Source: an uncultured Deinococcales bacterium
Lineage (GTDB): Bacteria > Deinococcota > Deinococci > Deinococcales > JAAFIG01
DNA length: 18,424 nucleotides
Direction: 5' to 3'
Assembly (NCBI GenBank): GCA_964247135.1
Contig: CAXTTL010000082.1
Span: 1 to 18,424 of the forward strand
The notes beneath the pieces are model-generated. The model was not told the DNA's origin, did not search any database, and worked only from the letters and a program-made list of their open reading frames with translations. Positions 3,331 through 18,235 of this stretch are shown here, piece after piece; position 1 is the first letter of the stretch, and each line of letters starts with the position of its first letter. The position numbers and the translations under genes were made by a program.

Positions 3331-3333
3331 GAT

Positions 3334-4281
3334 TTAAAACTTTCTTTCAAAGCGAATCCAACCAGGAAAACGCTTGAATCCAAGCTTGCGGTTCATCTCG
3401 AGCATTGCCGTGTTTGGCGCGTCGTTGAAGGTTCTGATCTCAAAGTTGCCGATGCTTTGCGCGTAACGAATGCCGCGAAGTTTTAACAGGGTTGCCAGCC
3501 CAATGCCGCGATATTCGCGCAGCACGCCAGTCATGCCGATGATCAAAAAACCGGTCGGGTTTTTGATAAAACTGGTGTACCCAACAAATTCATCGTCTTT
3601 GACGGCGATCAGGCAGCCGTCTGGTTCAAACATGGGGTCGAGCGTCATTTCTTTTTGCCAGGTTTCAAAGCTGGGTTTACTCACCTCTTCACCATACGGA
3701 ATGTCTTGCCAGAGCGCCCAATCCAGGTCATAAAGTTTGCTGTCTCGAGCTGGGTCGGACTCGAGTTCCGAAAACGTTTTGATCTCAATTCCTGCGGCTT
3801 TGATCTTCTCTTCAAAGTGCGAGTACGGCGCAAAATCAAAGTTCGCCGTCTCGAGTCTCGATTCCGTGCGTCGCCAGGTTTCTTCAAAGCCTCGATCCGT
3901 ATGAAAGCGAATGGCTCGCGTCCAATCTTCGCCCGCTCCAGATTGCAAAATCTCGGCATTGCGTGTTTTGATGTGTGACAGTACATGCTCGAACAAACTC
4001 GAGCCGATGCGCGAACCCCAGAATTCTGGATGAACCCGCAAGTTCAGATTGAGTTTGCCGACACGGTGCGCAAACGGGTCTTCAAACACGCTTGCAAGTC
4101 CACGAATGACACCATCAACCACAGCGACAAAACCCGCGAAATAAAAATTCTGATCTCGAGATGCCTCTTCGTGCAGCAAACGCTCGAGTGTTAAGGGAAA
4201 GTTTGGGTTGGCGGCGTTTAAAACCTCGAGCATTTCAGGGAAATCTTCGGGGGTTTTGGTGGGTCGAATCTCGAGCTTCAT
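3334..4281 (-). CDS. Tandem GNAT acetyltransferase, paralogue 2 (315 aa)
   Basis: Motifs VHPEFWGSRIG, TGVLREYRGIGLA and NTAMLEMNRKLGF. SD GAGAGG and ATGA overlap with the upstream gene. Confidence 0.9.
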   Translation of the reverse strand: MKLEIRPTKTPEDFPEMLEVLNAANPNFPLTLERLLHEEASRDQNFYFAGFVAVVDGVIRGLASVFEDPFAHRVGKLNLNLRVHPEFWGSRIGSSLFEHVLSHIKTRNAEILQSGAGEDWTRAIRFHTDRGFEETWRRTESRLETANFDFAPYSHFEEKIKAAGIEIKTFSELESDPARDSKLYDLDWALWQDIPYGEEVSKPSFETWQKEMTLDPMFEPDGCLIAVKDDEFVGYTSFIKNPTGFLIIGMTGVLREYRGIGLATLLKLRGIRYAQSIGNFEIRTFNDAPNTAMLEMNRKLGFKRFPGWIRFERKF

Positions 4282-5249
4282 GAATTCCTCTCAAAATGCC
4301 GCACAAAATGCACCCAGGCGGGTTGTTTGACAAAACCAAGTTTTTCGTTGATGGCGAGCATCGGGCGGTTGACATCATCGTTGAAGGTTTTGATTTGCGC
4401 AATGCCTTTGGTTTTTGCCCAGAGAATATTTTTGATTTTTAACGCCAGCGCAATCTGCTTGCCGCGCCATTCGCGCCGAGTGCCGGTTGCGCCATTCCAG
4501 GTGTCAGGCTTGCCTGGAGACCACCACAGGGTGCTTTCGGACAGAAACTCGAGCTTCCCTGCGTCATTTGGTTTGATGGCGACGACATAGGCTTCTGGGA
4601 CAAAATCTGGGTTTTTTAAAGCCCTGGTTTCAAATCGTTCAAAATTGGTTTCGGTGAATGGTTCAGGGTCGGGCATGTCACGGCTGGCGTCCATATCCAA
4701 ACGCCATAATTCCTGCGCCAGATCGGGCGTGCCAATCAGATCGGCATAAGATTTCAACTCAATCCCCTCGAGCTTTAACTGTCCCTCGAGCTGCAAGTAC
4801 GGGCTGGTATCAAAGCTTTGCACGTCGAGCCTGGATTCCCAGGCGCGGTATTCCTCCGTAAAACCAGCTTTCTCGAGAAACCGAATGCTGTGCGTCCAGT
4901 CCACTCGAGTCACGGCACGGACGGTCAGCACCTGATGCTCCTCGAGTTTGGTTAGTAGATGCTCGAGTAACCCCCGCCCAACGCCTTGTTGTCGGTGCTC
5001 GGGCAAAACATTGATGTCTACAAAAAATTTATGGGGATGAAACCGTTCTGCCGATTGCGAAAATGCACCAACCCCAAGCGTGTTCCCGTTTGTATCTTCA
5101 GCCAGAAAACGTTTGAACAACAGATACTTTTCGCGCACGCCATCGTAAAAACGAATTTCTTCGGCGCTGTCGGCAAGGTCTGGGTTGACCGCTTTATCGA
5201 TTTCGGCGATGGTTTGGTAATCGTTTTCGGTAAAGGCACGAATTTGCAT
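4278..5249 (-). CDS. Tandem GNAT acetyltransferase, paralogue 1 (323 aa, starts MQIRAF)
   Basis: SD CAGGAG precedes ATG 5249, and MQIR matches the paralogue N-termini. An alternative in-frame ATG lies at 5348. Motifs VLPEHRQQGVG, TGTRREWRGKQIA and NRPMLAINEKLGF. Confidence 0.88.
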   Translation of the reverse strand: MQIRAFTENDYQTIAEIDKAVNPDLADSAEEIRFYDGVREKYLLFKRFLAEDTNGNTLGVGAFSQSAERFHPHKFFVDINVLPEHRQQGVGRGLLEHLLTKLEEHQVLTVRAVTRVDWTHSIRFLEKAGFTEEYRAWESRLDVQSFDTSPYLQLEGQLKLEGIELKSYADLIGTPDLAQELWRLDMDASRDMPDPEPFTETNFERFETRALKNPDFVPEAYVVAIKPNDAGKLEFLSESTLWWSPGKPDTWNGATGTRREWRGKQIALALKIKNILWAKTKGIAQIKTFNDDVNRPMLAINEKLGFVKQPAWVHFVRHFERNS

Positions 5250-5338
5250 GGTTGAAGTCTCCTGAGTATATTCTGACCGCTCGAGTTGCGTTTTTGCATC
5301 TGCCGAATGACGGATGTGAAGACTTGAGTTTCTGATTT

Positions 5339-6187
5339 TCAATGCCACAATTCAAAAAATTCTTGCCACAAGCCAATGCGTTTTAACTCTCGAGCCACAT
5401 GCCCTAGCATTGCCCGCTCGAATGTTGCAGGATAATCGGTGTTCCAATTTTCGGTTGCGCGTCGTCCCGCGTGCCACATTTGCTTTGCCAGATCAAAATG
5501 GGCATTCACAATCGAAGCGGGGGAAATGTCGGTCAGGGCGAGCGCCATCTCGAGTCGCTGGCGCTCAACAGGTTCGAGCAATTCATTCAAGTGCAAATCG
5601 CCAACGTCACGCGGTCTGCCACGCCCGAGTGAACTCACGAAAATGATTTGATTCGCTTCATGGTGTAGGTATTCTAAAGCCGCAATCGTTTCACCTCGTT
5701 CGATGCTGCTCGGCAGGTGGGAGAGCAAATTCCAGAAGTAACAAATTTCAACGTGCAACGCTCGAGCGATGTCTTCACGGTTCGGAGTTGAAGCTGGCAA
5801 AACCTCGAGGATACCGTGAGGGTCGTACAAAACCCGAGTTTGATTTTCATTGATCTGCAAAGCTGTTCCAGTCTCGAGAAAGCTGTGAAGTGAAATCAAT
5901 TCCCCGCTCGAGTTCAGCAGTTTCGTGCCAATCATTGACCCACCGAACAATTCATGATGCAGCAAGACAGGATGAATTTGATTCAGCCTCGGTTCGTAAT
6001 CGGCGCGAAATGGCGCAGCATCTTCTGGCAGCAGGGCAATCTGCAAGTCGATATCCGAGTGCCGATCCGCCCGTCCACGTCCCATGCTTCCCTTCAACCA
6101 CAGCGCCCGAACTCGAGTGTCAAATGTCAAGTTGCTGACCAGTACCTCGAGAAATTCGAGTTGGGGTTTGATGTCGTGTTCAATCAT
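5339..6187 (-). CDS. Pol-beta-superfamily nucleotidyltransferase with helical C-terminal domain (282 aa)
   Basis: LKGSMGRGRADRHSDIDL matches the hG[GS]x9-13DhD signature. The two-domain layout resembles aminoglycoside/lincosamide nucleotidyltransferase-like proteins; substrate unknown. Confidence 0.8.
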   Translation of the reverse strand: MIEHDIKPQLEFLEVLVSNLTFDTRVRALWLKGSMGRGRADRHSDIDLQIALLPEDAAPFRADYEPRLNQIHPVLLHHELFGGSMIGTKLLNSSGELISLHSFLETGTALQINENQTRVLYDPHGILEVLPASTPNREDIARALHVEICYFWNLLSHLPSSIERGETIAALEYLHHEANQIIFVSSLGRGRPRDVGDLHLNELLEPVERQRLEMALALTDISPASIVNAHFDLAKQMWHAGRRATENWNTDYPATFERAMLGHVARELKRIGLWQEFFELWH

Positions 6188-6260
6188 TTTTGCGCCCTAC
6201 AATATCTGTAAAATCGAGAAAAGGGTTTTTCATGTCGTTGCAATCCAAAACCTCGAGCAT
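6180..6260 (-). CDS. Possible 26-aa bridging ORF (MLEVLDCNDMKNPFLDFTDIVGRKND)
   Basis: Its ATG overlaps the kinase stop (TGATG) and its stop overlaps the nucleotidyltransferase start (ATGATTGA). No homology recognised. Confidence 0.25.
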   Translation of the reverse strand: MLEVLDCNDMKNPFLDFTDIVGRKND

Positions 6261-7177
6261 CACAACACCAAAGCCAGTTCTTCCGAAGGTTTGGCAACCT
6301 GCACCTCTCGAGCCACACGCCGCACTTGTTTTAAAGTCTCGATTGGGTCTGGGCGCAAACCAAAATGCCCAAAACTGCGGCACAAGCCCGCCACGTCACG
6401 CTCGAGAATCATGTTCGCGCTGGGGTTTTGTTGCACCAGCACGACTTGTGGGAAGTCAATCACGATGCAGCGCTCTTGCCACCACAAAATGTTAAACGTG
6501 CTGTAATCGCCGTGAACCCGACCCGCGCCCAGAATCAAACCCATGTTGTGAACACTCTGCTTGAAGGCTTCTTCGGCAGTCGCTTTGGAAAGTTTGGCGT
6601 CAGACAATCGCGGTGCCGCCCCGTTTTCGTCGCCAATGAATTCCATCAAAATCACGTTGCCAGCTTCGGTCAGTGCAATCGGTCGCGGTACGGGAACGCC
6701 AGCGTGTTGCAGCGCGTGCATCTGCCCGAATTCTTCTTGAACCCACAAGACATTCTGCGCCCCAATGCCGGTGCTCGAGCGCAATTCGATGGCTTTTTGC
6801 AGGCGTTTGTCGTCAATAAACCTCGAGCCTCGGTAAAGCGAATCGTTTTTAAAACTTCGTACCCGAGAGTCAATGTAAAGTTTGGCGGCGGCAAGTCCCT
6901 CCTTGCCTTCGACCACGTAGACGGTGGCTTCCTTGCCCGATTTTAACTCCCACAGTAACTCGAGAATCAAACCGCGCTCGAAGAGTTCTTGCAAGCCTGG
7001 ATCGTCGAACTTGACGTGTTCTTCGACTTTGTAATCGGTTTGGTTTTCACTCAGCAATGCGGCAACGCTGCGTCGGCGCGGCGGTTTGCGGGCGTGACGA
7101 TGCCCTCGGTCTTGAAAGGCTTCACGACTTTCATCCCAGGACAAATTGCTGTCGCGGGTGCTCGGACGGCGGCTCAT
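6260..7177 (-). CDS. RIO1-family atypical Ser/Thr kinase/ATPase (305 aa)
   Basis: RIO motifs LKSGKEATVY, AAKLY, VPVPRP, ILMEFIG, VHGDYSTFNIL and VIDFPQ. Arg-rich N-terminal extension. Confidence 0.92.
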   Translation of the reverse strand: MSRRPSTRDSNLSWDESREAFQDRGHRHARKPPRRRSVAALLSENQTDYKVEEHVKFDDPGLQELFERGLILELLWELKSGKEATVYVVEGKEGLAAAKLYIDSRVRSFKNDSLYRGSRFIDDKRLQKAIELRSSTGIGAQNVLWVQEEFGQMHALQHAGVPVPRPIALTEAGNVILMEFIGDENGAAPRLSDAKLSKATAEEAFKQSVHNMGLILGAGRVHGDYSTFNILWWQERCIVIDFPQVVLVQQNPSANMILERDVAGLCRSFGHFGLRPDPIETLKQVRRVAREVQVAKPSEELALVL

Positions 7178-7254
7178 GCTGCCACCAATGGGGGTTTAAA
7201 ACTCGAGTTTTTAGAATTGAACCTGCAAAGTACGGCTGATACGATATGAATCAC
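7174..7254 (-). CDS. Possible 26-aa upstream ORF (MIHIVSAVLCRFNSKNSSFKPPLVAA)
   Basis: AGGAG (7264-7260), 5 nt, then GTG. Its TGA overlaps the kinase ATG (ATGA). Confidence 0.3.
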   Translation of the reverse strand: MIHIVSAVLCRFNSKNSSFKPPLVAA

Positions 7255-7327
7255 TTTGACTCCTGATTGAATGAGACAGGGCGAAGAGCCTCGAGCCGAG
7301 GTGTAAAAGGGATTGGGTTGTTTTCAT
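7211..7327 (-). CDS. Putative 38-aa leader/small peptide (MKTTQSLLHLGSRLFALSHSIRSQSDSYRISRTLQVQF)
   Basis: Full-length SD GGAGGTGA (7342-7335), 7 nt, ATG 7327, TAA 7213-7211. Too short for the ORF track. Confidence 0.5.
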   Translation of the reverse strand: MKTTQSLLHLGSRLFALSHSIRSQSDSYRISRTLQVQF

Positions 7328-7365
7328 ATTCGTGTCACCTCCAATGCAGAGAAATTATTGTCGAA

Positions 7366-7371
7366 AGTCTA
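7366..7371 (-). promoter_or_regulatory. Candidate -10 box (TAGACT) for the leader/RIO/NTase/GNAT operon
   Basis: TANNNT hexamer identical to the one before bcp, about 25 nt upstream of the strong SD and downstream of the flotillin terminator. Confidence 0.35.
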
Positions 7372-7461
7372 CACCAAAAAGTAACTCGAGGTGCGATGAG
7401 CCAAATGGCGTATTTGGGTTAAGGTTGTGATGCTCGAGCGAATCGCAAATTTGGCTATTAA

Positions 7462-7489
7462 AAACCTCGAGCAGTTAAGCTCGAGGTTT
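7462..7489 (-). terminator. Intrinsic terminator after the flotillin gene
   Basis: Perfect 11-bp inverted repeat AAACCTCGAGC-agttaa-GCTCGAGGTTT, 16 nt past the stop, running into a T tract on the minus strand. Confidence 0.75.
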
Positions 7490-7505
7490 CAATTTGGATT
7501 TTGCT

Positions 7506-8846
7506 TTAAGTGTTCAGATCAATCACACCATCGACGGGTTTGTTCGTGGCTTTGACGCTTTGTGCATTGTTCGTGCCGAGTGACTCGAGCACCCCACTTT
7601 TGCCGATCAACTGGGTTGCCATGACCATCTGAATCACGTTGCCAATCTGATTGGTGACATCGCTGGCTGCGCCTTTGCCGTCGCCAGAAATGCTGACCAG
7701 TTTGGCTTGCGCCAGGGCTTGCGAGATGGCTTGGGCGATTTGAGGCAGTTGTTCGATTTGACGGTATTTCAAGTAATTTTCGCCACCTGCCGAAATGGCT
7801 TCGTTAAACAGTTGAATGCTTTTGGCGTTGGCTTCACCGACTTTCAGAATCCGAACCGCTTCGGCTTCCGCTTGGGCTTGGGCTGCCATCCGAACCCTGG
7901 CGGCGTCGGCTTCGGCGGCAATTTTGACTCGCATCGCGTCGGCATCGGCGGCGACTTTCACGCGCAAGGCGTCGGCTTCGGCTTGCGCGACCTGCGTGGC
8001 GCGAAGCTCGGCGAGGCGTTGCTTGGCGAGTGCGTCCTGGGTGCTGGCTTCGGCTTCGGCGACCAGTTTGGCGTTCGAGGCTTTTGTTTGCTCGAGTTCA
8101 CGGCTTTTGTCGCTGATGGTGCGTTCCGCCTCGAGTTGTGCCTCTTTGGCACGACGGGTTTGTTGGGTACTGACAATGTCGGCGTTGGCTTGGGCTTCGG
8201 CGGCGCTTTGACGGCGGCGGGCTTCGGCAACCTCAGAGCGCACGACTTTGATGTTCAGGCTGTTGAAAATCAAGCCCAAATCGGTAAGTTCTTTGCTGCA
8301 AGCCTTGCGAATGATAATGGCGAGCGGATCGTCATCTTCGCTGTCGGGCGCGGGTTCGTTGCGCTGCCCAGCGGTTTTGGCAGAAAACAATTGATCGTGG
8401 GTCAAGAGGTTGATGGCACGGCGTCCGGCACTGGTCAACAGGTCGGAGAGCGTGTTGAGTTGCTCGTCTTCGGGTTTGGCGAAGTACCTGTTGGCGGCGG
8501 TGCGAATCAGCACGTCGGTGTCACCGACACTGACAATCGCGCTCGCCAAAACCTGAATTTTGATCGGGCGCGGAATGCCGTTTGCGTCAATGTCGGCGGT
8601 CTGGTCGGTGATGTCCAGGTCAACGTTGATCGCCTTGCTCGAGAGGGTTGTACCTTGGGTCAAAAGCGGCACCTCGAGGCTTTTGCCTGGTCCTCGGTAA
8701 ATGTTGGTGCCGCCGTTGACCCAACTGACCATGCGGATCGAACCCGCGTCCACGTTGCGTAAAAAACTGGTGACGATCAGTGGAATCACCACGAGAATCA
8801 CGAGCACTGCGGCGATAATCCAAATAAACGGTCCCAAATCTGGCAT
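7506..8846 (-). CDS. SPFH/flotillin-family membrane scaffold protein (446 aa)
   Basis: N-terminal TM helix, SPFH-like domain, long Ala/Glu-rich coiled coil (AEAEA repeats), SD AAAGGAGG. Lies downstream of an NfeD-like gene. Confidence 0.85.
   Translation of the reverse strand: MPDLGPFIWIIAAVLVILVVIPLIVTSFLRNVDAGSIRMVSWVNGGTNIYRGPGKSLEVPLLTQGTTLSSKAINVDLDITDQTADIDANGIPRPIKIQVLASAIVSVGDTDVLIRTAANRYFAKPEDEQLNTLSDLLTSAGRRAINLLTHDQLFSAKTAGQRNEPAPDSEDDDPLAIIIRKACSKELTDLGLIFNSLNIKVVRSEVAEARRRQSAAEAQANADIVSTQQTRRAKEAQLEAERTISDKSRELEQTKASNAKLVAEAEASTQDALAKQRLAELRATQVAQAEADALRVKVAADADAMRVKIAAEADAARVRMAAQAQAEAEAVRILKVGEANAKSIQLFNEAISAGGENYLKYRQIEQLPQIAQAISQALAQAKLVSISGDGKGAASDVTNQIGNVIQMVMATQLIGKSGVLESLGTNNAQSVKATNKPVDGVIDLNT
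7884..7982 (-). repeat. Three 33-bp (11-aa) coding tandem repeats in the flotillin coiled coil
   Basis: gcgtcggc(t/a)tcggc at 7903, 7936 and 7969, encoding AEADALRVKVA / ADADAMRVKIA / AEADAARVRMA. Confidence 0.75.
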
Positions 8847-8943
8847 TTTTACTTCCCTCCTTTAAGGGTTCGTACCTGCATGTTTTGCGAGACTCGAGGG
8901 TTCAGGTACGCACAGCCGCTCGAGTGAGGATGATTTCAGGGTT

Positions 8944-9516
8944 TTAGATTTTACTGACGATGCAGCTTCCATCGCTGTTGACAGCTTCAATCCGAACGTG
9001 TTGCCCTCGAGAAACATTGGTGGTTTTGTCTTTCAATGTTCCCAAAACTTGGCGCACTTGTCCGTCAAGCTCGAGTTCGATCAAACCTTGCCCGTTCGCG
9101 TCAAAGTTGGTGTTGGCGGTGGCGGTTGCGCCCTTCACACTCTCGAGGTTTTTGGCTGGGGTGCTGGCGAATTTGAACATGACGTTCCAGTACGGTTCGA
9201 CCAGTAAGCGCTCAAACAAAATTGCACCCGCGCCTGCAACCAAAACCGCCAGAATTTTTGGTAGGAACGAAACGGTCATGCCAATCGCGCCAAAACCGAG
9301 CGCCAGACTGAAAATCGCTCTGGGTGAAACAAAAGCCAGCAAGCGACTGAGGGTGCTGTGGTCGTGCGTTCCGTGACTCGAGGCGTGGTGATGCGTGTGC
9401 GTATGAAGATCGTGACTGTGGTTCGAGTGTTGCCCGTGATTCCCGCCGTGACTGAAACCCAAAAGCGCCATCGAAATTAATCCAACCAAACCGAGTACCA
9501 ATGCCATGAGGAACAT
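8944..9516 (-). CDS. NfeD-like (YuaF-type) membrane protein with His-rich loop (190 aa)
   Basis: Start moved to 9516 (SD GAAGGGAG, MFLMALVLG). Three hydrophobic segments, a C-terminal OB-fold-like region (GLIELELDGQVRQV...GQHVRIEAV), and the typical position upstream of a flotillin gene. Confidence 0.75.
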   Translation of the reverse strand: MFLMALVLGLVGLISMALLGFSHGGNHGQHSNHSHDLHTHTHHHASSHGTHDHSTLSRLLAFVSPRAIFSLALGFGAIGMTVSFLPKILAVLVAGAGAILFERLLVEPYWNVMFKFASTPAKNLESVKGATATANTNFDANGQGLIELELDGQVRQVLGTLKDKTTNVSRGQHVRIEAVNSDGSCIVSKI

Positions 9517-9634
9517 GTTGTTCTCCCTTCCCTCGCTTTTACGATACGCGATACTCCAACAAAACGTTCCCGAATGCACCTTTGACGGCTCGAGAGGCGT
9601 GGAAATAAGAATTGTTTGCGCTGCCGGGGTTTGC

Positions 9635-12130
9635 TTAAAACTCGAGTGTGATGTTTGCGTCAATCAGTTTGAGCAGTTCGTTAAATGGCACGGCTTTGGA
9701 CCAATAAAATCCTTGAGCGCGTGCGCAATTGAGCTTTTGCAACATTTCGACTTGCTTTTTGGTTTCGACCCCTTCGGCAATCACTTGCAAACTTAAGTTG
9801 CGTCCCAATTCAATGATGCTTTTGACCAAGGCATCGTCTTGCTCGAGGTCAATCACAAAGGATTTATCGATTTTCAAAATATCAAACGGTAAATGCCGCA
9901 AATGACTAAGGCTCGAGTAACCCGTACCAAAGTCATCTATCGCCAGTTTCACGCCCAAATCTCGGAGCTTGCGCATTCGTTCGGCGGCAGCGTCCACGTC
10001 CTGCATGACCAGGCTTTCGGTCAGTTCAAGCTCGAGTTGCTGCGGGTTTAAGCCGCTGTTCTCGAGGGCTTCGGCGACCAGCAGGCTAAAGTCGCTGCGT
10101 GGAAATTGAGCGGCTGAAACGTTGACCGCCACGCTGATTTGGCGGTGGGTGCGCCGTGAAATCCGCACGGCGTTCAGACATGCCTCGCGCAGCACCCATG
10201 CGCCGACGGGTGCGATCAAATCGGTATCTTCGAGCACGGGGACAAAACGTTGTGGAGAAATTTCGCCAAGTTGTGGATGCTGCCAACGCAGGAGGGCTTC
10301 GATGCCAGTGATCTCTTGGGTTGGATTGTTGCTGAGGTGGTATTGCGGTTGGTAATACAGTTGAAACTCGTGGTGCTCGAGGGCGTGGCGCAGTTGGGCT
10401 TCAAAATGCAGTCGATCCGAGGCGAAATCGCCCATGCGTGGCGCAAACAACCGATACGTGTTTTTACCCGAATCTTTGGCACGGTACATGGCGGTGTCGG
10501 CGTGCTTGAGCAGGGTTTCAACACTTGTGCCATCACTTGGATAAACCGCCACGCCAATACTGCCAGTGACGTTCAGTTCGTGTCCGTGGATTTGAAAGGT
10601 GGGGATCAAGGCTTGCAGCACTTTGCGGGCGACCTTGTTGACATCCTCGAGCGATCCAATATCATCCAAAATCAGTGTGAATTCGTCGCCGCCCATGCGT
10701 GCCACCGTGTCGCCAGTCCGTACCGAACCCAACAAACGACTGGCAACCTTCACCAGCAAGGCATCACCCACTCCGTGCCCCAGGGTGTCGTTGATGGCTT
10801 TAAAGCGATCCAAGTCCATGAATGCCACCGCCACCAATCGACCGTGACGTTCGGCGTTGTCCAGTGCCAACTCGAGTTTTTGTCTGAACAGCAAACGGTT
10901 GGGCAGGGTGGTTAAGGCGTCATGGTGTGCCAGCAACTCGAGTTTTTCCTCGAGTTCTTTGCGTTCGGTGATGTCAAAAAAGCTCGAGACCACCGCGTAT
11001 GGTTTGGTTTCGCCTTCGTGGGTTAACAGGCGGGTGTTGCCCGAAATCCAGATCAGGGCGGCGTCGGGTCGTTGTACGCCCATGATGATATTGACTTGGG
11101 TTTGCCCAGTGCGCCAAGTGACTGCCCAAGGCAGGGCATCTGGTGGGAATGGCGTTCCATCGGCTTGAATCGCTCGCCAGGGCAGTTCGTCCACGCGTTT
11201 GCCAATTAAACTCACGCCCAAAAGCTGTTCAGCGGCAGGGTTGGCACTTAAAACATGTCCCTTGAAGTCTTGCACCACCACACTTTCGGCAAGCGACTCG
11301 AGTACCATGCGGTGATGTACTTCGCTTTCACGTAAGGCGTGTTCGGCGTGTTTGCGTTCGGTGATGTCATGTCCCTCGAGCACCCACAAGATCAGGTTGC
11401 CAGATTCGTCGTGTAAGGCGCTGATCGCACAATCCAGAACCCGAGTTGATTCATAACCTTTTACCTCGAGTTCACTTCGACGAAATTCTTCTGCCGTGTG
11501 AATTTGGGTGGCTTGGTACGCCCATTTTTCGGCGTTGGCATTACTTTTCCACCAAGCCCCTTCCCAGAATGTCGATCCGATCAGGGCATCGCGGGTCATG
11601 CCCAGGTATTTCAAACCTGAACGGTTGACCTCGAGAAACTTTCCTTCGGGTGAAAGCAGCGCCATGACTTGAGAAGAGTTGTTGAAAATCGCGCTTAAGC
11701 GTTGTTGGCTTTGATTCAGTCGTTGTTTGAGGTGGTTGGTTTCGCTCAGGTCACGCAACCAGATCAGCAGCAAGTTCTGGTTGTCAAATTCAAATGGGAC
11801 GCTCGAGTATTCCACTTCAATGTGTTGACCGTTGGCGTGCAAACCAATTTTGGTGGTGTGTTTGGGTTGTCCGTGTTGAATTGAAGAAATTCTGTTGCTT
11901 AAACGCGCAGTTAAACTGTTCGCATCTTGGTCTGGGATCAGCAATTCAAAAATTTGGCGTCCCAAAACAGCCTCTCGAGTGTATCCCAGCAAACGTTCAC
12001 TGGCAGGATTCCATTCGTGAATTAAACCTTGGTGGTCAATCACGATCACACAAAATTGAGAATTGCTAATTAGAACCTCAGCCAAACTCGAGTTGATGTG
12101 TTGCTTGGTTTGGTCTGGGTTTAATTGCAT
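9635..12130 (-). CDS. Cytoplasmic PAS-PAS-PAS-GGDEF-EAL diguanylate cyclase/phosphodiesterase (831 aa)
   Basis: Three PAS starts (WNPASERLLGY, VNRSGLKYLG, ANPAAEQLLG), DLDRFKAINDTLGH, RTGD I-site plus GGDEF, EALLRW and DDFGTGYSS all intact. Confidence 0.95.
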   Translation of the reverse strand: MQLNPDQTKQHINSSLAEVLISNSQFCVIVIDHQGLIHEWNPASERLLGYTREAVLGRQIFELLIPDQDANSLTARLSNRISSIQHGQPKHTTKIGLHANGQHIEVEYSSVPFEFDNQNLLLIWLRDLSETNHLKQRLNQSQQRLSAIFNNSSQVMALLSPEGKFLEVNRSGLKYLGMTRDALIGSTFWEGAWWKSNANAEKWAYQATQIHTAEEFRRSELEVKGYESTRVLDCAISALHDESGNLILWVLEGHDITERKHAEHALRESEVHHRMVLESLAESVVVQDFKGHVLSANPAAEQLLGVSLIGKRVDELPWRAIQADGTPFPPDALPWAVTWRTGQTQVNIIMGVQRPDAALIWISGNTRLLTHEGETKPYAVVSSFFDITERKELEEKLELLAHHDALTTLPNRLLFRQKLELALDNAERHGRLVAVAFMDLDRFKAINDTLGHGVGDALLVKVASRLLGSVRTGDTVARMGGDEFTLILDDIGSLEDVNKVARKVLQALIPTFQIHGHELNVTGSIGVAVYPSDGTSVETLLKHADTAMYRAKDSGKNTYRLFAPRMGDFASDRLHFEAQLRHALEHHEFQLYYQPQYHLSNNPTQEITGIEALLRWQHPQLGEISPQRFVPVLEDTDLIAPVGAWVLREACLNAVRISRRTHRQISVAVNVSAAQFPRSDFSLLVAEALENSGLNPQQLELELTESLVMQDVDAAAERMRKLRDLGVKLAIDDFGTGYSSLSHLRHLPFDILKIDKSFVIDLEQDDALVKSIIELGRNLSLQVIAEGVETKKQVEMLQKLNCARAQGFYWSKAVPFNELLKLIDANITLEF

Positions 12131-12142
12131 CGTGTGAGCCTA
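12131..12142 (-). promoter_or_regulatory. Candidate leaderless promoter: TAGGCT, 6 nt, ATG
   Basis: Minus strand reads TAGGCT CACACG ATG with no SD. Confidence 0.55.
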
Positions 12143-12316
12143 ACCGAAATTTGAAGTTCTAACAATACTCGAACATCAAAGCAGTTTGATCTGGATTTTA
12201 AATGAAGTGAAGGTTTGTTCACAAAACAGTCTTTAGGTTTTGGCAAAAATTTGATATTCTGTTCACAACAAAAAACTCGAGCACGTTCTTGATATTCACG
12301 AAATGGAAAGGGTTTT

Positions 12317-12739
12317 ATGGCAGAACTCAAAACCAAACAAAACGATGCTTCTGTTGATGATTTCCTCGAGTCAATCCCAAACGAACAAGTTCGCACAGAT
12401 TGCCAAACCATTGTCCAAATCATGGCAAAAGCCAGCAACTCGAGCGCCAAAATGTGGGGTGCAAGTATCATTGGTTTTGGCAGCTACCATTACCGCTACG
12501 CCTCTGGACGCGAAGCCGATTGGATGCGCATTGGTTTCGCGCCGCGCAAGCAAAACATGGCGCTGTACATTGTCAGTGGCTTTGAAGAATACGAAAAACT
12601 GCTGGCGCAACTTGGCAAATACTCCAGAGCAAAGTCATGCTTGTACATCAAAAAACTCTCCGATATTCACCTGCCCATTCTCGAGAAACTGATTCAAGCC
12701 TCAGTCAAACACATTTCCGAAAAGTACCCAGAGTCTTAA
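12317..12739 (+). CDS. DUF1801 (YdhG-like) protein (140 aa)
   Basis: Typical sequence MAELKTK..ASVDDFL..MWGASIIGFGSYHYRYASGREADW..GFAPRK..LGKY..KSCLYIKKL. Purine-rich SD GGAAAGG. Confidence 0.88.
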   Translation: MAELKTKQNDASVDDFLESIPNEQVRTDCQTIVQIMAKASNSSAKMWGASIIGFGSYHYRYASGREADWMRIGFAPRKQNMALYIVSGFEEYEKLLAQLGKYSRAKSCLYIKKLSDIHLPILEKLIQASVKHISEKYPES

Positions 12740-12751
12740 ATTTCAACACAA

Positions 12752-12782
12752 AAACTCGAGAGACTTTTTGCCTCTCGAGTTT
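12752..12782. terminator. Bidirectional intrinsic terminator between convergent genes
   Basis: Perfect 11-bp inverted repeat AAACTCGAGAG-actttttgc-CTCTCGAGTTT flanked by A and T tracts, between the DUF1801 and DUF4139 stops. Confidence 0.75.
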
Positions 12783-12799
12783 CTTGATTCTCACGGCTT

Positions 12800-14077
12800 T
12801 TAATATTTGAAGGTGATCGTATAGGTCGCTTCAAACTTCTCGCCTGGTTTGAGCGTGTTGACGGCGGAAATACCCTCTTCGCTGTTCTTGTAGTTGGGCA
12901 ATTTGACCGCCTCGAGATCATAGTTTTGTCCGCCCAGAACCTCATTGATCTTGACCGTCACCGCCCTGGTTTTGGTGTTGACCAAACTGAAATTCACTTT
13001 GTACTTGATGTTCGTGTTGGTGCGGCTCAGGGTTTGCACCGTGCGGGTCAAACGCAAGTCAAAATCCGCGCCCAAGTTGATCGTGGCTTTTTCGGCTTTC
13101 GGATTGTCAGAAATCCGCGCCTGTCCGACCACCCTGGCATCTTCGCGCACGGTCATGACGCCACCTGGCAAATCCGAATCGGTTTTGATGTTGTAGACCC
13201 GACTCAGCGGCACGACAATTTTGGGGCTGCCGTTAAAACCGCTGTAATACTCAAAGCTCCGCTCGAGGCTGGCTTTGGTGTTAATAAATGGCAAACTGGT
13301 GGTGGTGCGGGCTGCCAGTGTGGCGGGGCTGTTAAATTTGAAGGTCTGCAAACCCGCGCTTTCACCTGCGGCTTCGACGCTCGGCGCACCGTCGCTCGAG
13401 GCTTTGGCAATCGGTGCGGCGGCAGCCACGGCATACGGTTGCACGTTTTGGTTGTACTCCCCAGAAGCCAGGTTGACCTGCCCTGCGATCAACTCGAGTT
13501 TTGGGGTTTTGTATTCCACGCCGCTGGCGTTTTGCACATCTGCCCAACCCGTCAGTTTCGCATCGTCGCCTTTGATCGCCAAGGTGTAACGCGGACTCCA
13601 AGTGATGCCCCGCGTCAGGTACGTCAGCACGCTCGAGCCACCAGCGCCGCCCAAAGTCCAAGAATAGGTTGGTGCGAAACGCACGCCCTCAAGGGTTGGG
13701 AAGACCACATCGGCAACGCTGGCTTGCACAAATTGATTGCCGATTTGAAACAATCCAATATTGGCTTTGATGACAATGGCTTTGACCAGTTTGTTATCGC
13801 GCTTTAATAGCACTTCTTTGCCTTCAAACGCCTCGAGCAAACTTGGGCTGGCGGGCAGCAAATTCACGTTAAAAATTTCTGGGTACTCGAGTTCCAAACT
13901 TCCAGGCACGAGGTACTGCCCAAGGTCGGCGGCTGGCGACCAATCAAAACGGTTGTTTGATATTTGCACGGGTTCACGGATTTCCGCAAAGTTGTAATAC
14001 AAAGTTGCATCGGTGGCTTTGGCGCTTGAGAGTGCTGCGGTGATGGCGAGAACGGCGAGTTGCAAGTTCTTTTTCAT
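12800..14077 (-). CDS. Exported DUF4139-domain protein (425 aa)
   Basis: Signal peptide MKKNLQLAVLAITAALSSAKA. Family-like motifs LTYLTRGITWSPRY, GWADVQNASG, LELIAGQVN and LPGGVMTVRED. Confidence 0.75.
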   Translation of the reverse strand: MKKNLQLAVLAITAALSSAKATDATLYYNFAEIREPVQISNNRFDWSPAADLGQYLVPGSLELEYPEIFNVNLLPASPSLLEAFEGKEVLLKRDNKLVKAIVIKANIGLFQIGNQFVQASVADVVFPTLEGVRFAPTYSWTLGGAGGSSVLTYLTRGITWSPRYTLAIKGDDAKLTGWADVQNASGVEYKTPKLELIAGQVNLASGEYNQNVQPYAVAAAAPIAKASSDGAPSVEAAGESAGLQTFKFNSPATLAARTTTSLPFINTKASLERSFEYYSGFNGSPKIVVPLSRVYNIKTDSDLPGGVMTVREDARVVGQARISDNPKAEKATINLGADFDLRLTRTVQTLSRTNTNIKYKVNFSLVNTKTRAVTVKINEVLGGQNYDLEAVKLPNYKNSEEGISAVNTLKPGEKFEATYTITFKY

Positions 14078-14089
14078 GCCTCGAGTGTA
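14078..14089 (-). promoter_or_regulatory. Candidate leaderless promoter: TACACT-CGAGGC-ATG
   Basis: TANNNT 6 nt before the ATG, no SD, overlapping CTCGAG. Confidence 0.65.
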
Positions 14090-14160
14090 CGGAAAGTTTT
14101 TTGGATTTTATGAGCAATCATTCAAGGTTCGTTTCCATTCTCGAGCATTAAACGGGGGGC

Positions 14161-14191
14161 TTGACTTTTACGTTACGGAAACGCCCATTGT
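14161..14191 (+). promoter_or_regulatory. MerR-type promoter/operator
   Basis: -35 TTGACT (14161-14166), a 19-bp spacer holding the dyad TTTACGT-T-ACGGAAA (14167-14181), and a weak -10 CATTGT (14186-14191), directly upstream of a MerR gene. Confidence 0.65.
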
Positions 14192-14224
14192 GATGCTCGA
14201 GCGCTCAAACCAAAGGAAATCAAC

Positions 14225-15052
14225 ATGAAAATCAGCGATCTTGCGCACTTGGCTCGGGTTTCAACCCGAACGTTACGCCATTACGACGAAATTGGTTTGT
14301 TCAAACCGACCCGAATTGATTCTTTAACCGGATACCGCGAGTACAGCGTGAGTCAGATGGCGCTCTTGAACCGCATCCTGGCATTGCGCGACTTGGGCTT
14401 TTCGCTCGAGCAAATTTCGAGCTTAACCGCCAATGGTTTCGCGCCAGATCGTTTACGTGACTTGCTCGAGTTGCGCAAAGCCGAACTTGAAACCCATATT
14501 TCGGAACAAAGCAAACGTCTCGAGCAGGTTGAGCAAAGACTCGAGCGCATCAACCAGGAGAGTATTATGTTTGATTACACAGTCAACATCAAATCGCTTC
14601 CAGATCATTTGATTGCTTCCGTTGGAAACCCAGAGCTTGATGTGGTCGAGGAAAACATTCGATCTTTAAAAAATTATTATTCGGTATTGTTCGATCATCT
14701 TGCTCAGCACGGCGTTCAGAGTGCCTTGCCTCAAATCAACATTGCACATCCAACAAAAAATGATTTCTGGAAGATGGAGGTCGCGCAAATGCTCGAGAAA
14801 CCCATCCCTGAAAGCGATCAAGTCAAGGTGTACCAACTGGCAGGTGTGCCAATGGCGGCATTCCTCGAGTTTCGGGGTTTGCACGAATGGCAAAAAGTTG
14901 AAGATGCCGTTCTGGGATTGCTGACCTGGGTGGAAGAAAACGGCTACAGCACTGCTGGAGCGTTGCGTCAAGTCTATCTCGAGATGCCCCAAGGGTACGA
15001 CGAGGGTGTGCCTTGCGTCATTGAAATTCAAGTTCCAGTGCAGCTCTCGTAA
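14225..15052 (+). CDS. MerR-family regulator with GyrI-like effector domain (BltR/BmrR-like, 275 aa)
   Basis: HTH MKISDLAHLARVSTRTLRHYDEIGLFKP..TGYREYS, a coiled coil, and a C-terminal GyrI-like domain (WVEENGY..GALRQVYL..IEIQVPV). Confidence 0.92.
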   Translation: MKISDLAHLARVSTRTLRHYDEIGLFKPTRIDSLTGYREYSVSQMALLNRILALRDLGFSLEQISSLTANGFAPDRLRDLLELRKAELETHISEQSKRLEQVEQRLERINQESIMFDYTVNIKSLPDHLIASVGNPELDVVEENIRSLKNYYSVLFDHLAQHGVQSALPQINIAHPTKNDFWKMEVAQMLEKPIPESDQVKVYQLAGVPMAAFLEFRGLHEWQKVEDAVLGLLTWVEENGYSTAGALRQVYLEMPQGYDEGVPCVIEIQVPVQLS

Positions 15053-15100
15053 CATCAGAAAACTTAAAGCCAGTTCACAAAATATCCCAACCAAAAGGAC

Positions 15101-15112
15101 TAGACTCGAGCC
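15101..15112 (+). promoter_or_regulatory. Candidate leaderless promoter: TAGACT-CGAGCC-ATG
   Basis: TANNNT 6 nt before ATG 15113, overlapping CTCGAG. Confidence 0.65.
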
Positions 15113-15649
15113 ATGAAAATCCTGACCGCATTTTTGGCTGTGCTGATTTGCTCGAGTCTCGCCTTGGCATTAAGAGTTGGCGAACCCGCGCCGCTGCCGA
15201 CCATCAAAGATTCGTTTGGCAAAACCATCAAGCTCGAGTCCGACAAGGGCAAATGGATTGTGCTGTTTTTTTACCCTCGAGCATTCACAAGCGGTTGCAC
15301 GGCGCAAAATATTGAATATACCAAGCGCTATCAGGATTTTCTCGAGGCTGGTGCGGTGGTTTACGGCGTCTCGAACGATGCCAGCGCCAAGCAGTGCGAT
15401 TTTGTCAAAAAGTATGCGCTCAAAGTGCCGCAAATTCCCGATACCAAGTTCGAGTTGGCGAAGGCGTTTGATGTCGCCTCGGGTTTGGGTTTGTACAACC
15501 GTGACACGGTTATTATTGCGCCTTCGGGCAAGGTGAATGCCATCAAGCGTGGGGTCAATGCAGTCAACGATGCGGCTGAAAATCTCGAGTTTGTGCAACG
15601 CAAAGGTGATTGCAAGGTTGTCCTAAGCGGCACTGTGTCTTGCGGTTGA
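15113..15649 (+). CDS. bcp: BCP/PrxQ-type peroxiredoxin with N-terminal signal peptide (178 aa)
   Basis: Peroxidatic motif FYPRAFTSGCT (PxxxTxxC), VYGVSND and the conserved Arg in RDTVIIAP. Hydrophobic leader ending ALA. Confidence 0.85.
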   Translation: MKILTAFLAVLICSSLALALRVGEPAPLPTIKDSFGKTIKLESDKGKWIVLFFYPRAFTSGCTAQNIEYTKRYQDFLEAGAVVYGVSNDASAKQCDFVKKYALKVPQIPDTKFELAKAFDVASGLGLYNRDTVIIAPSGKVNAIKRGVNAVNDAAENLEFVQRKGDCKVVLSGTVSCG

Positions 15650-16042
15650 ACGTTCAAATTCCAGGTTTGGATTGGGTTGAAGGCTCGAGTCGGTTTTGAG
15701 CATACACAGCACTTCGATCACAAAGTTTCCAGGGCATTTAAAGTAAAACGTCCATGAACCATGAAATTTGTGTGGTTCTTCAGCTTGAACACCATCGGCT
15801 GTCAGGCGTTGATACAACTCGTTGACTCGAGTTTGGTTTTCTTGAACAAAGCCAACATGAAACGATGCTGGGTAACTGACGGCATCGCCTTTGAAGATGT
15901 TGACAATCATGCCGTTTTCGTCGCTTAAAAGTGCCATGTGAGGATTGGCTTTTTTGAGGGCTTGGAGTCCAAAGTATGTTTCCAAAAATGTTGAGGTCAC
16001 AAGGACATCTTCGACGGTCAAATTGATGTGGTTGAGTTTCAT
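15623..16042 (-). CDS. VOC/glyoxalase-family protein (139 aa)
   Basis: Start moved to 16042 (SD AAAGGAG). Motifs MKLNHINLTVEDV, FHVGF and FYFKCPGNFVIEV. Confidence 0.85.
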   Translation of the reverse strand: MKLNHINLTVEDVLVTSTFLETYFGLQALKKANPHMALLSDENGMIVNIFKGDAVSYPASFHVGFVQENQTRVNELYQRLTADGVQAEEPHKFHGSWTFYFKCPGNFVIEVLCMLKTDSSLQPNPNLEFERSTARHSAA

Positions 16043-16073
16043 TTGAGTCTCCTTTGAGTGTGCTCGAGTGGTT

Positions 16074-16268
16074 TTAGACCAGTTGTTTTGATGCTCGAGG
16101 CTCGAGTTCTGGCTCGAGTTTTCGCGCCCAGGCTTGCAGGGTTTGCGCGAGTTGGTGTCGCCAAGAAACGTTGGCATTGCGAAGTTGACGGTGCGTGTCT
16201 GCATCGTGCAGGAGTTGCTCAATGTGTTCTTGCTTGATGATTTGTATCCACTGCATTTGGTTGTCCAT
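16074..16268 (-). CDS. Small hypothetical helical protein (64 aa)
   Basis: Strong SD CAGGAGG and a near-consensus promoter directly upstream; amphipathic helical sequence. Confidence 0.7.
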   Translation of the reverse strand: MDNQMQWIQIIKQEHIEQLLHDADTHRQLRNANVSWRHQLAQTLQAWARKLEPELEPRASKQLV

Positions 16269-16287
16269 GTTCCTGCCTCCTGAAAAT

Positions 16288-16317
16288 ACTATAAAGTATA
16301 ATATTATAATTTGTCAA
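16288..16317 (-). promoter_or_regulatory. Sigma70-type promoter with palindromic operator
   Basis: TTGACA (16317-16312), 18 nt, TATAGT (16293-16288). The spacer is covered by the 20-bp dyad AAAGTATAATATTATAATTT (16293-16312, one mismatched pair). Confidence 0.7.
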
Positions 16318-16448
16318 GTTTGATTTTCGTTTTAAGTCATAATACTTATTTTTTAGCTCAAAAAAGAAATCTGAGATAACCAAATTGAATTACCCCGCAC
16401 TCGAGTACAACCGCCCCTCGAGACTCAAACCGAATTTCAAATGGGCGG

Positions 16449-16460
16449 TATACTCGAGCC
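16449..16460 (+). promoter_or_regulatory. Candidate leaderless promoter of trpS: TATACT-CGAGCC-GTG
   Basis: Near-consensus -10 box 6 nt before GTG 16461, no SD, overlapping CTCGAG. Confidence 0.7.
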
Positions 16461-17477
16461 GTGAAACGTGTTTTTTCGGGCATTCAACCAACCGGCGACT
16501 TGCACATCGGCAATTACTTGGGCGCGATTCGCAACTGGGTCAAAATAGGCGAACAGATCGGCAAAGACGCGATTTTTTGCATCGTGGATTATCATGCCAT
16601 CACCATTCCGCACGACCGCGAACTGCTGGCACAACGCACCTTCGACGCGGCACTGGCGAACATGGCGGCAGGCTTAGACCCGAACAAAATTGTGCTTTTC
16701 GCACAATCACATGTGCCAGAACACCTCGAGCTTGGCTGGGTTTTCAGCACCCAAACTCCCTTGGGCGAACTCGAGCGCATGACGCAATTCAAAGACAAAT
16801 CCGAGCAGCACAGCGTGCTGGCGGGCTTATTGATGTATCCAGTTTTGCAAGCTGCCGATATTTTGCTCTACAAAGCCGATACTGTTCCTGTCGGCGAGGA
16901 TCAAATTCAGCACATCGAACTCACTCGAGAAATCGCACGGCGTTTTAACGCCAAGTTCGCCCCCGAAAATCCCGTATTCCCCGAACCCAAAGCCAGCATC
17001 GACAAAAGCGCCGCTCGGGTGCCTGGTCTGGACAATTCGGGCAAGATGAGCAAATCCAAAAACAACACGCTCGAGTTGCTCGAGCCTCAAGCGGCGCTCT
17101 GGGAGAAAATTCGGGTTGCGCCCACCGATCCCGCTCGGGTGCGCCGCAATGATCCTGGAACGCCCGAAAAATGCGTGATCTACTCGTATCACAAGCTTTT
17201 CTCGAGTTTGGACATGATTCAGGAAGTGGACACGGGTTGTCGCACTGCTGGCATTGGCTGTATCGACTGCAAAAAACGCCTGATGATCGGATTGATGGAA
17301 ACCCTCGAGCCGATTCAAGCTCGCGCCGCTCACCTTCAAGCCCACCCGCATGAGGTCACCGATGCGCTCGTGTCTGGCGCAGAACATTGCCAGAAGATTG
17401 CCAAAGAAACCATGCTCGAGGTTCGTGACGCCATCGGTTTACTCAGACCAAATTCCATCCGTCCTGCCGCCCAATGA
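16461..17477 (+). CDS. trpS: Tryptophan--tRNA ligase (338 aa)
   Basis: FSGIQPTGDLHIGNYLGA (HIGH), YPVLQAADIL, VPVGEDQIQH and KMSKS. Confidence 0.97.
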   Translation: MKRVFSGIQPTGDLHIGNYLGAIRNWVKIGEQIGKDAIFCIVDYHAITIPHDRELLAQRTFDAALANMAAGLDPNKIVLFAQSHVPEHLELGWVFSTQTPLGELERMTQFKDKSEQHSVLAGLLMYPVLQAADILLYKADTVPVGEDQIQHIELTREIARRFNAKFAPENPVFPEPKASIDKSAARVPGLDNSGKMSKSKNNTLELLEPQAALWEKIRVAPTDPARVRRNDPGTPEKCVIYSYHKLFSSLDMIQEVDTGCRTAGIGCIDCKKRLMIGLMETLEPIQARAAHLQAHPHEVTDALVSGAEHCQKIAKETMLEVRDAIGLLRPNSIRPAAQ

Positions 17478-18235
17478 CACCACCAATACTCGAGCCTCAA
17501 GATACTTTCGATATCACCTTCATTGCCCGTTTTGAGGGTTTTGAAGGCACGTTGCTCGAGCTTGCAGCCGCCCTTCGCGCTGGAAAACTTGAACCCGTTT
17601 TTGTGCCGCTCCTCGAGTTGACCCGCGCTGTATTGTTGCGCTTTGAGAATTTTCGCACCGAACTCGAGATTCTCAGCATCGGCAGCCTGGACTTGGCTTC
17701 CGAAGCCCTGCCGCACCTGGCTGGCGTGATCGAACTCAAAGCGCGGTTGTTGCTTCCGCGTCCCATCAAAGCCCATCACGAAGACGCCGATGAAATCGAT
17801 GCCTCACTCCAGGATGTGCTCTCAGGCGTCGAAGCCCTCGCTCAACTCGAGGGTGCAATCTCGTTCTTGCGTGACCGCCGCAAAGAGCGCTCGAAAATGC
17901 TGATCGCCAGCCCTGTGCCCATCAACCTGCCCCGCAAGATGCGACCGCTCACCCAAAGCATCGGTGATCTGGTTGATGCCGCCAAACGCCGCGTGCGCGA
18001 AGTCAACCTTTTCGACCTCGCCCATGACCGCCTCACGCTTCCCCAAGCCCTCGAGCGTCTGCGTGTGTTCAGCCAAAAACTCAAAAAATTCTTCTTCTCC
18101 GAGATTCCAGCCCAAGACTGGGGTGAACGCACCGTTCTGTTCAGCGCCATGCTCGAGGGTGTTCGCGCTGGGGAACTAAAGGTTGAACAACCTGAGATTT
18201 ACGGCGCAATCGAAATTCAACAGACCGTGAATTGA
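17474..18235 (+). CDS. scpA: Segregation and condensation protein A (kleisin, 253 aa)
   Basis: FEGTLLEL N-terminal motif, IELKARLLLP, and C-terminal FSAMLE..GELKVEQPEIYGAIEI. ATGA overlap with trpS. Confidence 0.88.
   Translation: MTPPILEPQDTFDITFIARFEGFEGTLLELAAALRAGKLEPVFVPLLELTRAVLLRFENFRTELEILSIGSLDLASEALPHLAGVIELKARLLLPRPIKAHHEDADEIDASLQDVLSGVEALAQLEGAISFLRDRRKERSKMLIASPVPINLPRKMRPLTQSIGDLVDAAKRRVREVNLFDLAHDRLTLPQALERLRVFSQKLKKFFFSEIPAQDWGERTVLFSAMLEGVRAGELKVEQPEIYGAIEIQQTVN

What the first reader, a model, noticed from the sequence alone, without database searches (positions are those of the whole stretch)
14078..16463. CTCGAG is fused to the -10 box of three leaderless-type genes: TANACT-CGAGSC-start
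Seen: three unrelated genes share the same 12-nt architecture directly before the start codon and lack a properly spaced SD: TACACT CGAGGC ATG (DUF4139, minus, 14089-14075), TAGACT CGAGCC ATG (bcp, 15101-15115) and TATACT CGAGCC GTG (trpS, 16449-16463). The final CT of the -10 hexamer is the first CT of the palindrome, so CGAG fills the discriminator. A fourth gene has the same spacing without the palindrome (TAGGCT CACACG ATG, 12142-12128). Established: TANNNT 6-7 nt before the start codon marks leaderless mRNAs, which are very common in Deinococcus-Thermus. Inference: a potentially methylatable site placed in the region melted by RNA polymerase could give methylation- or replication-coupled control of a promoter class, a function I do not know to be described for HIP-like motifs.
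Basis: partly seen in the sequence, partly recalled or inferred. Interest (0 to 1): 0.82.

Follow-up and report, generated by a model that had tools for sequence, protein, structure and literature searches.

The report
Abundant palindrome overlapping leaderless promoter boxes
Three neighbouring genes of a bacterium likely of the Deinococcus group have the word CTCGAG overlapping the predicted promoter box just before their start codons, but that word occurs every 150 bases in this genome, so the overlap is most likely a by-product and not a new gene switch.

Summary
The three sites are as described and look like ordinary Deinococcota leaderless promoters (TANACT, 6 nt, start). A dedicated promoter class is not supported. 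CTCGAG occurs 33,925 times in the genome (6.7/kb), and 16.5% of CT in upstream intergenic DNA continues as CGAG. Fused starts number 86 of 485 TANNCT starts, against about 80 expected (p=0.43). A modest bias remains: 71/347 at the 6-nt spacer versus 15/138 at 7 nt, with the same direction in 17 of 19 family genomes. Odds run 1.2-1.7 times background in fitted models. A preferred G at -3, avoided restriction-type words and spacing between copies explain part of it. Fused sites are no better conserved than other CTCGAG sites (6/11 versus 110/150). Orthologues keep the -10 box but often lose CGAG (bcp 6/15 keep it, DUF4139 3/12). The genes share no function, and no shared CTCGAG methyltransferase was found. 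The register matches the known M. tuberculosis MamA/-10 overlap.

The parts
14078..14089 (-). -10-type hexamer TACACT plus 6-nt spacer CGAGGC; CTCGAG at 14080-14085
   Evidence: -10 kept in 12/12 orthologues, CGAG in 3/12
12800..14077 (-). DUF4139 gene, 425 aa, ATG start, likely leaderless
15101..15112 (+). -10-type hexamer TAGACT plus 6-nt spacer CGAGCC; CTCGAG at 15105-15110
   Evidence: -10 kept in 15/15 orthologues, CGAG in 6/15
15113..15649 (+). AhpC/TSA (Bcp-like) peroxiredoxin gene, 178 aa, likely leaderless
16449..16460 (+). -10-type hexamer TATACT plus 6-nt spacer CGAGCC; CTCGAG at 16453-16458
   Evidence: fused in 9 of 16 family genomes with upstream sequence (this one included), in 0 of 13 loci of other families
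16461..17477 (+). trpS, 338 aa, GTG start, likely leaderless
12131..12142 (-). unfused comparison promoter TAGGCT CACACG before the PAS-GGDEF-EAL gene (9635-12130)
104..18157 (.). 142 CTCGAG copies spread over the window (HIP-like background)
   Evidence: 142 versus 3.16 expected from shuffles

Best explanation
The three genes carry a TANACT box six bases before the start codon, as hundreds of likely leaderless genes in this genome do, and the CTCGAG overlapping that box is most likely a by-product of a genome-wide excess of the word, not a dedicated control element. Shown: the word occurs 6.7 times per kb in coding and non-coding DNA alike; 57% of the -10-type hexamers end in CT, which supplies its first two letters; and the fused share (18%) matches the share of any upstream CT that continues as CGAG (16.5%). 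Inferred: a DNA-level pressure of unknown kind (HIP-like) fills any slot that tolerates the word, and the discriminator is such a slot. The 6-nt spacer is filled more often than the 7-nt spacer, likely for three reasons. The last G of the word falls on the preferred -3 position. The usual pre-start triplets after the word at 7 nt (GCC, CCC, CTC) would create avoided GGCC or GRGCYC sites. And the -10 box and start codon leave no room for a competing nearby copy. Sites are gained and lost while the -10 box stays.
For: Density 33,925 copies, 35x first-order Markov; 6.6/kb intergenic and 6.7/kb coding. Pooled 86/485 versus 79.8 expected, p=0.43. Joint promoter model, both spacers: odds 1.17-1.32, p=0.16-0.42. 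Implied boost 90x at 6 nt and 45x at 7 nt lies within the 47-94x of synonymous coding contexts; 13,141 of 16,421 Leu-Glu pairs are CTCGAG. Given G at the fourth spacer position: 71/153 fused versus 1,178/2,525 background. Genome-wide, CTCGAG is followed by CCC 0, CTC 0 and GCC 2 times in 67,850. Gaps of 6-14 nt between copies number 620 versus 1,975 expected; fused 38/145 without versus 33/202 with a nearby copy, p=0.03. Conservation to a same-genus genome: 6/11 fused versus 110/150 near-intergenic and 2,851/3,606 coding; reverse direction 16/21 versus 69/93. Across genera 7 of 26 orthologues are fused, versus 39-50% retention of coding CTCGAG. Family share ranges from 2 to 30%. The 21 sampled fused genes have mixed Pfam families.
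Against: At the 6-nt spacer the excess is significant under some nulls: 65/285 high-confidence starts versus 16.4%, p=0.005; 71 versus 48.9 expected from non-C5 discriminators, p=0.001; 71 versus 10.6% from a matrix of unfused promoters, a null biased low; joint model odds 1.5-1.7, p=0.02-0.08. Pattern counts exceed the genome-wide (mostly coding) background in 16 of 19 genomes (kin, not independent), and G009 shows 9/39 versus 9.1%, p=0.007. Among orthologues where this genome has TANNCT, 7/16 are fused, p=0.014. trpS and bcp keep the fusion across three or four genera. The flank effects explain only part of the threefold 6-versus-7 difference (513/3,070 versus 88/1,532).
Confidence: 0.7

Rival explanations
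1. Mild selection on promoter mechanics, without methylation: CGAG is a good discriminator for starting exactly at the codon 6 nt after the -10 box, so once the HIP-like pressure creates it, it is kept at 6-nt promoters and lost at 7-nt promoters.
For: 6-nt versus 7-nt asymmetry: 42/192 versus 2/66 with starts chosen by coding potential only; 51/229 versus 4/79 for TANACT, p=0.0003; same direction in 17 of 19 genomes. The fused share rises with a genome's use of the 6-nt spacer, rho 0.78 (kin). A passage of PMC5730371 states that purine-rich discriminators favour upstream start sites.
Against: Unfused promoters show no purine difference between 6 and 7 nt, and G at -5 is not preferred (16%). 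trpS orthologues carry the fusion at 7- and 8-nt spacing. No extra conservation. The total over both spacers is at chance.
Confidence: 0.18
2. One reading: CTCGAG is methylated or bound by a factor, and its overlap with the -10 box gives methylation- or replication-coupled control of about 70-90 leaderless promoters, as MamA does in M. tuberculosis.
For: The register equals that of MamA: last base of the -10 box on the template strand and the third base after it on the non-template strand (PMC3701705), provided CTCGAG is N6-methylated at its A (recalled XhoI/PaeR7I-type position; untested). Modest 6-nt excess. Long retention at trpS and bcp.
Against: No methyltransferase could be assigned to CTCGAG. 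Of the hits here, three sit beside Pfam-confirmed restriction enzymes (NgoPII, Eco29kI, MvaI/BcnI), and there is no TaqI_C match (genome 84% complete). The recurrent ~500-aa family candidates are not one orthologous group. No conserved or functionally coherent gene set. Nearly absent in three family genomes: 3/179, 15/219 and 10/214. For HIP1, no link to transcription starts was found (PMC5861425).
Confidence: 0.1
3. The hexamers are not promoters; the genes are transcribed with leaders from farther upstream, and the whole pattern is chance.
For: No RNA evidence was available for these starts.
Against: Sharp TANNNT peak at 6-7 nt without using the signal to pick starts. TANACT-N5-C-RTG occurs 218 times versus 54 for the reversed control. 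The -10 box is kept in 27 of 27 bcp and DUF4139 orthologues. This architecture is established in the phylum.
Confidence: 0.03

Closest known systems
Leaderless -10-motif promoters of Deinococcus-Thermus (PMC12340547, PMC4007540; passages read)
   Same: TANNNT 6-7 nt before ATG/GTG, no SD; hexamers ending in CT are common (TACACT is the commonest in D. radiodurans; TAAACT and TAGACT here).
   Different: About 18% carry CGAG right after the box because the genome is CTCGAG-rich; the find on PMC12340547 gave 0 hits for 'methyl' and 'palindrom'; start sites are not mapped here.
MamA (CTGGAG, m6A) overlap with the -10 box in Mycobacterium tuberculosis (PMC3701705, PMC7591249; passages read)
   Same: A CTnnAG word whose first CT is the end of the -10 hexamer, in the same register relative to the start site.
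   Different: MamA is an identified methyltransferase with about 1,947 sites and knock-out effects on expression. Here the word is a perfect palindrome with 33,925 sites, no enzyme is identified, methylation is untested, and the overlap frequency is close to chance.
HIP1 (GCGATCGC) and alternative HIPs of cyanobacteria (PMC5861425, PMC4390886; passages read)
   Same: A hyper-abundant palindrome in coding and non-coding DNA, conserved beyond control words, with no clear tie to transcription starts.
   Different: Different word and phylum; HIP1 goes with two orphan methyltransferases, while none was found for CTCGAG; the letters of HIP1 do not fit the end of a TANNNT box.

Membership tests
Deinococcus-Thermus leaderless promoter | TANNNT 6-7 nt before the start codon | tested here: met
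   kept in orthologues
Deinococcus-Thermus leaderless promoter | no Shine-Dalgarno at working distance | tested here: met
   SD scan at 4-12 nt negative for the four starts
Deinococcus-Thermus leaderless promoter | transcription start at or within a few bases of the start codon | not testable with these tools
   no RNA holder listed
MamA-type methylation-tuned -10 promoters | site overlaps the -10 box in the MamA register | tested here: met
   sequence compared with the passage of PMC3701705
MamA-type methylation-tuned -10 promoters | a cognate orphan methyltransferase is encoded | tested here: inconclusive
   none assignable in six family searches of this 84% complete genome or among 15 family candidates; specificity cannot be read from sequence alone
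MamA-type methylation-tuned -10 promoters | over-representation of the site at the -10 position | tested here: inconclusive
   pooled at chance (p=0.43); 6-nt spacer odds 1.2-1.7x in fitted models; 7-nt spacer depleted
MamA-type methylation-tuned -10 promoters | site is methylated and expression depends on it | not testable with these tools
   needs a methylome and mutants
Conserved regulon | site kept at orthologous promoters more than background sites | tested here: not met
   6/11 versus 110/150; 16/21 versus 69/93; 7/26 across genera versus 39-50% for coding sites
Conserved regulon | functionally coherent gene set | tested here: not met
   21 fused genes of G005 scanned: mixed enzymes, one response regulator, 5 without a family; the 86 of this genome were inspected by eye only
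HIP-like word | genome-wide over-representation in coding and non-coding DNA | tested here: met
HIP-like word | conserved more than other words | tested here: met
   69-79% kept versus 37-46% for other aligned 6-mers

The most novel reading that the evidence does not exclude
The HIP-like word CTCGAG is modified or bound by a still unknown factor, and at some 70 leaderless promoters with a 6-nt spacer, where it sits in the MamA register, it tunes initiation, so that a genome-wide palindrome has been co-opted as a shared promoter switch in a whole bacterial family.
Probability: 0.1. Interest if true: 0.7.

Novelty: new member of a known kind. Interest (0 to 1): 0.25.

Why it matters
As it stands it matters little: these are ordinary leaderless-type promoters in a genome saturated with one palindrome. 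The useful result is a caution and a handle. In such genomes any motif containing CT or GAG will look enriched, so the null must be conditional. The roughly 70 fused promoters also give a simple read-out for testing whether CTCGAG is modified or bound at all, which bears on the open question of what maintains HIP-like words. If the novel case held, it would be a gene-level function for a HIP-like word, which was looked for and not found for HIP1 (PMC5861425).

Tried and rejected
RNA: no RNA holder listed for 11900-18400; this is no evidence either way. Methyltransferase leads: the 466-479 aa N6/N4 enzyme on C4 has an adjacent co-directional 271-aa ORF without a Pfam family, read as a likely partner nuclease; I did not test it across the family. 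A ~500-aa PF07669-weak ORF recurs in many family genomes; 15 such loci were fetched and fall into several groups (pairwise identity mostly 23-35%, small clusters up to 91%), with only 25-27% identity to the type I-like protein on C169 here; rejected as a shared enzyme. PF01555 and PF00145 were searched in this genome only, not across the family. A sigma region 1.2 preference for G at -5 was rejected (16% in unfused promoters). Coupling of G-3 with C-1 was rejected (110/166 versus 220/364, p=0.21). The null built from unfused promoters (10.6%) was set aside as biased low, since removing fused sites depletes the same letters; it is reported as evidence against. Gene-call samples of four relatives had low power and mixed signs: 7/54, 1/47, 9/39 and 2/30 against backgrounds of 15.4, 10.9, 9.1 and 11.5%. 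Promoter loci of G010 were not obtained, so its orthologues were not compared beyond the three genes. Paper searches for CTCGAG with Deinococcus or Meiothermus, HIP with Deinococc-, and leaderless with discriminator and methylation listed nothing on this motif; the library lacks most subscription papers and I read no supplements.
Full report
Observation. My SD scan found none at 4-12 nt before them. The trpS GTG aligns with residue 1 of PDB 2el7, by far the best hit; that 2el7 is the Thermus enzyme is recalled.

Background. CTCGAG occurs 142 times in the window against 3.16 expected and 33,925 times in the 5.09 Mb, 84% complete genome: 6.66/kb, 35 times a first-order Markov expectation, equally in coding and intergenic DNA. 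It is the top palindrome in all 17 trpS loci of the family (4.0-9.3/kb) and at most 2.8/kb in 13 loci of other families. 13,141 of 16,421 Leu-Glu pairs use it, and 65-67% of synonymously allowed positions in the compared genes carry it. This scan reported the excess before, in this and other genomes; it had no note on the fused motif.

Leaderless signal. I called genes with my own codon model (4,019 starts, atypical genes missed) and scored only TANNNT and SD, never CGAG. 601 starts have TANNNT at 6 nt and 246 at 7 nt; 485 of these 847 end in CT. With starts chosen by coding potential alone the peak remains (319 at 6 nt, 112 at 7 nt, 93 at 5 nt, 15-58 elsewhere, of 3,977). This agrees with D. 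radiodurans (TANNNT 6-7 bp upstream, commonest form TACACT; passages of PMC12340547) and D. deserti (60% leaderless; passages of PMC4007540). No RNA test was possible.

Is the fusion enriched? 71 of 347 TANNCT starts at 6 nt and 15 of 138 at 7 nt are fused. In upstream intergenic DNA 16.5% of CT continues as CGAG, giving 58-61 expected at 6 nt (p=0.06-0.16) and 23-24 at 7 nt (p=0.04-0.07); pooled, 86 versus 79.8, p=0.43. Against this: the high-confidence 6-nt subset is 65/285, p=0.005, a null from non-C5 discriminators expects 48.9, p=0.001, and a null from unfused promoters, biased low, expects 10.6%. Maximum-entropy models with position-specific bases and one common boost give odds of 1.2-1.5 (p=0.10-0.44). 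Fitted jointly with all upstream classes they give 1.5-1.7 at 6 nt (p=0.02-0.08) and 1.2-1.3 for both spacers (p=0.16-0.42). The implied boost (90x at 6 nt, 45x at 7 nt) lies within the 47-94x of synonymous coding contexts. So about two thirds or more of the fused sites, and on the pooled count nearly all, need no promoter-specific cause.

The residual. The 6-versus-7 asymmetry is real: 42/192 versus 2/66 with non-circular starts, and 513/3,070 versus 88/1,532 in pattern counts over 19 family genomes, same direction in 17 (the counts include non-gene decoys and the genomes are kin). Pattern counts exceed the genome-wide background in 16 of 19 genomes and fall below it in G015, G007 and G011. 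Three ordinary causes contribute. At 6 nt the last G of the word is the -3 base, where unfused promoters also prefer G; given that G, 71/153 are fused versus 1,178/2,525 in background. At 7 nt the common pre-start triplets GCC, CCC and CTC almost never follow the word (2, 0 and 0 of 67,850), because GGCC and GRGCYC are avoided. Copies also avoid short gaps (620 versus 1,975 at 6-14 nt), and fused sites are commoner when no neighbour copy is near (38/145 versus 33/202, p=0.03). These do not account for the whole threefold difference, so a small effect on start-site choice stays possible (passage of PMC5730371). A similar fit appears upstream: a peak of CTCGAG-N-TANNNT (18 of 601, about 6 at neighbouring positions) puts the word's G on the preferred -14 G.

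Conservation. Against a same-genus genome (800 kb fetched, 623 kb aligned) 6 of 11 fused sites are kept, versus 110/150 near-intergenic, 359/521 other intergenic and 2,851/3,606 coding sites; all 11 keep TANNCT. In the reverse direction, from the first 30 of 91 pattern hits, 27 aligned at the site, 21 of these head an ORF of 60 aa or more, and 16 of those 21 keep CTCGAG, versus 69/93 other intergenic sites. Across genera, 92 pattern-led ORFs gave 64 of 60 aa or more and 26 with a usable orthologue here (18 no hit, 18 failed identity or coverage filters, 2 no start): 7 fused, 9 TANNCT unfused, 4 other TANNNT, 6 none. 7/16 is above the 18% base rate (p=0.014) but in the range of coding CTCGAG retention, 39-50%. 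For the three genes: bcp keeps TANNNT in 15/15 orthologues and CGAG in 6/15; DUF4139 12/12 and 3/12, with loss in relatives of 95-96% protein identity; trpS is fused in 9 of 16 family genomes, at spacers of 6, 7 and 8 nt, and in none of 13 outside the family. The box is old and the palindrome comes and goes. The 21 fused genes scanned are a mixed set.

Methylation. Family searches in this genome, a motif scan and ORF lists gave methyltransferases, three of them beside Pfam-confirmed NgoPII, Eco29kI and MvaI/BcnI nucleases; the first two fit the avoided GGCC and CCGCGG (specificities recalled). None could be tied to CTCGAG. A recurring ~500-aa candidate in the family proved to be several unrelated groups. 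Absence is not shown: the genome is incomplete and specificity cannot be read from sequence.

Comparison. It works like an ordinary Deinococcus-Thermus leaderless promoter. The geometry equals the M. tuberculosis MamA overlap, where methylated bases lie opposite the last -10 base and three bases after the box (passages of PMC3701705, and PMC7591249), but the defining enzyme and expression effect are not shown here. For HIP1, no link with transcription starts was found (passages of PMC5861425), and a methylation-dependent repair model has been proposed (passages of PMC4390886, which has no hit for CTCGAG, Deinococcus or Thermus). Searches listed no paper on this motif; I saw listings and passages only, no supplements.

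Verdict. Observation confirmed; regulatory reading mostly not supported. By-product 0.70, mild mechanical selection 0.18, methylation- or factor-coupled control 0.10, not promoters 0.03. Novelty: new members of a known promoter kind; as a dedicated element it is not demonstrated. Interest 0.25.

Noticed in passing
whole genome G000: Very strong avoidance of many palindromic words beside the CTCGAG excess: GAGCTC 0 copies, GAGCCC/GGGCTC 0.004x, CCGCGG 0.005x, GGATCC 0.007x, GCATGC 0.007x, CGTACG 0.008x, CAGCTG 0.011x, GGCC 0.016x, GCGCGC, TCGCGA, CGATCG, ATGCAT, CTGCAG under 0.04x. GAGCTC is also nearly absent in samples of G005, G009 and G011 but not G008.
   Followed up: partly
upstream of 6-nt leaderless starts, genome-wide: Second positional peak CTCGAG-N-TANNNT at -19 (18 of 601), placing the word's G on the preferred -14 G; a position-specific model expects about 12.
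   Followed up: partly
window 486-5249, minus strand: Five tandem, tightly coupled ~315-aa genes, each matching GNAT acetyltransferase families.
   Followed up: no
window 14161-14200: TTGACT followed by a partial dyad upstream of the MerR-family gene at 14225, resembling a MerR-type long-spacer promoter (architecture recalled, untested).
   Followed up: no
G015, G007, G011: Three family genomes have few fused promoters (2-7% of pattern hits) although CTCGAG is abundant; they also use the 7-nt spacer more than most relatives.
   Followed up: partly
L031 (G000:C189:3425-7051): An MvaI/BcnI-family nuclease and N6/N4 methyltransferase pair lies directly downstream of a gene that looks like ftsZ; the methyltransferase ORF has no CTCGAG, suggesting recent arrival.
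   Followed up: no
window 6260-7177, minus strand: RIO-domain kinase gene.
   Followed up: no
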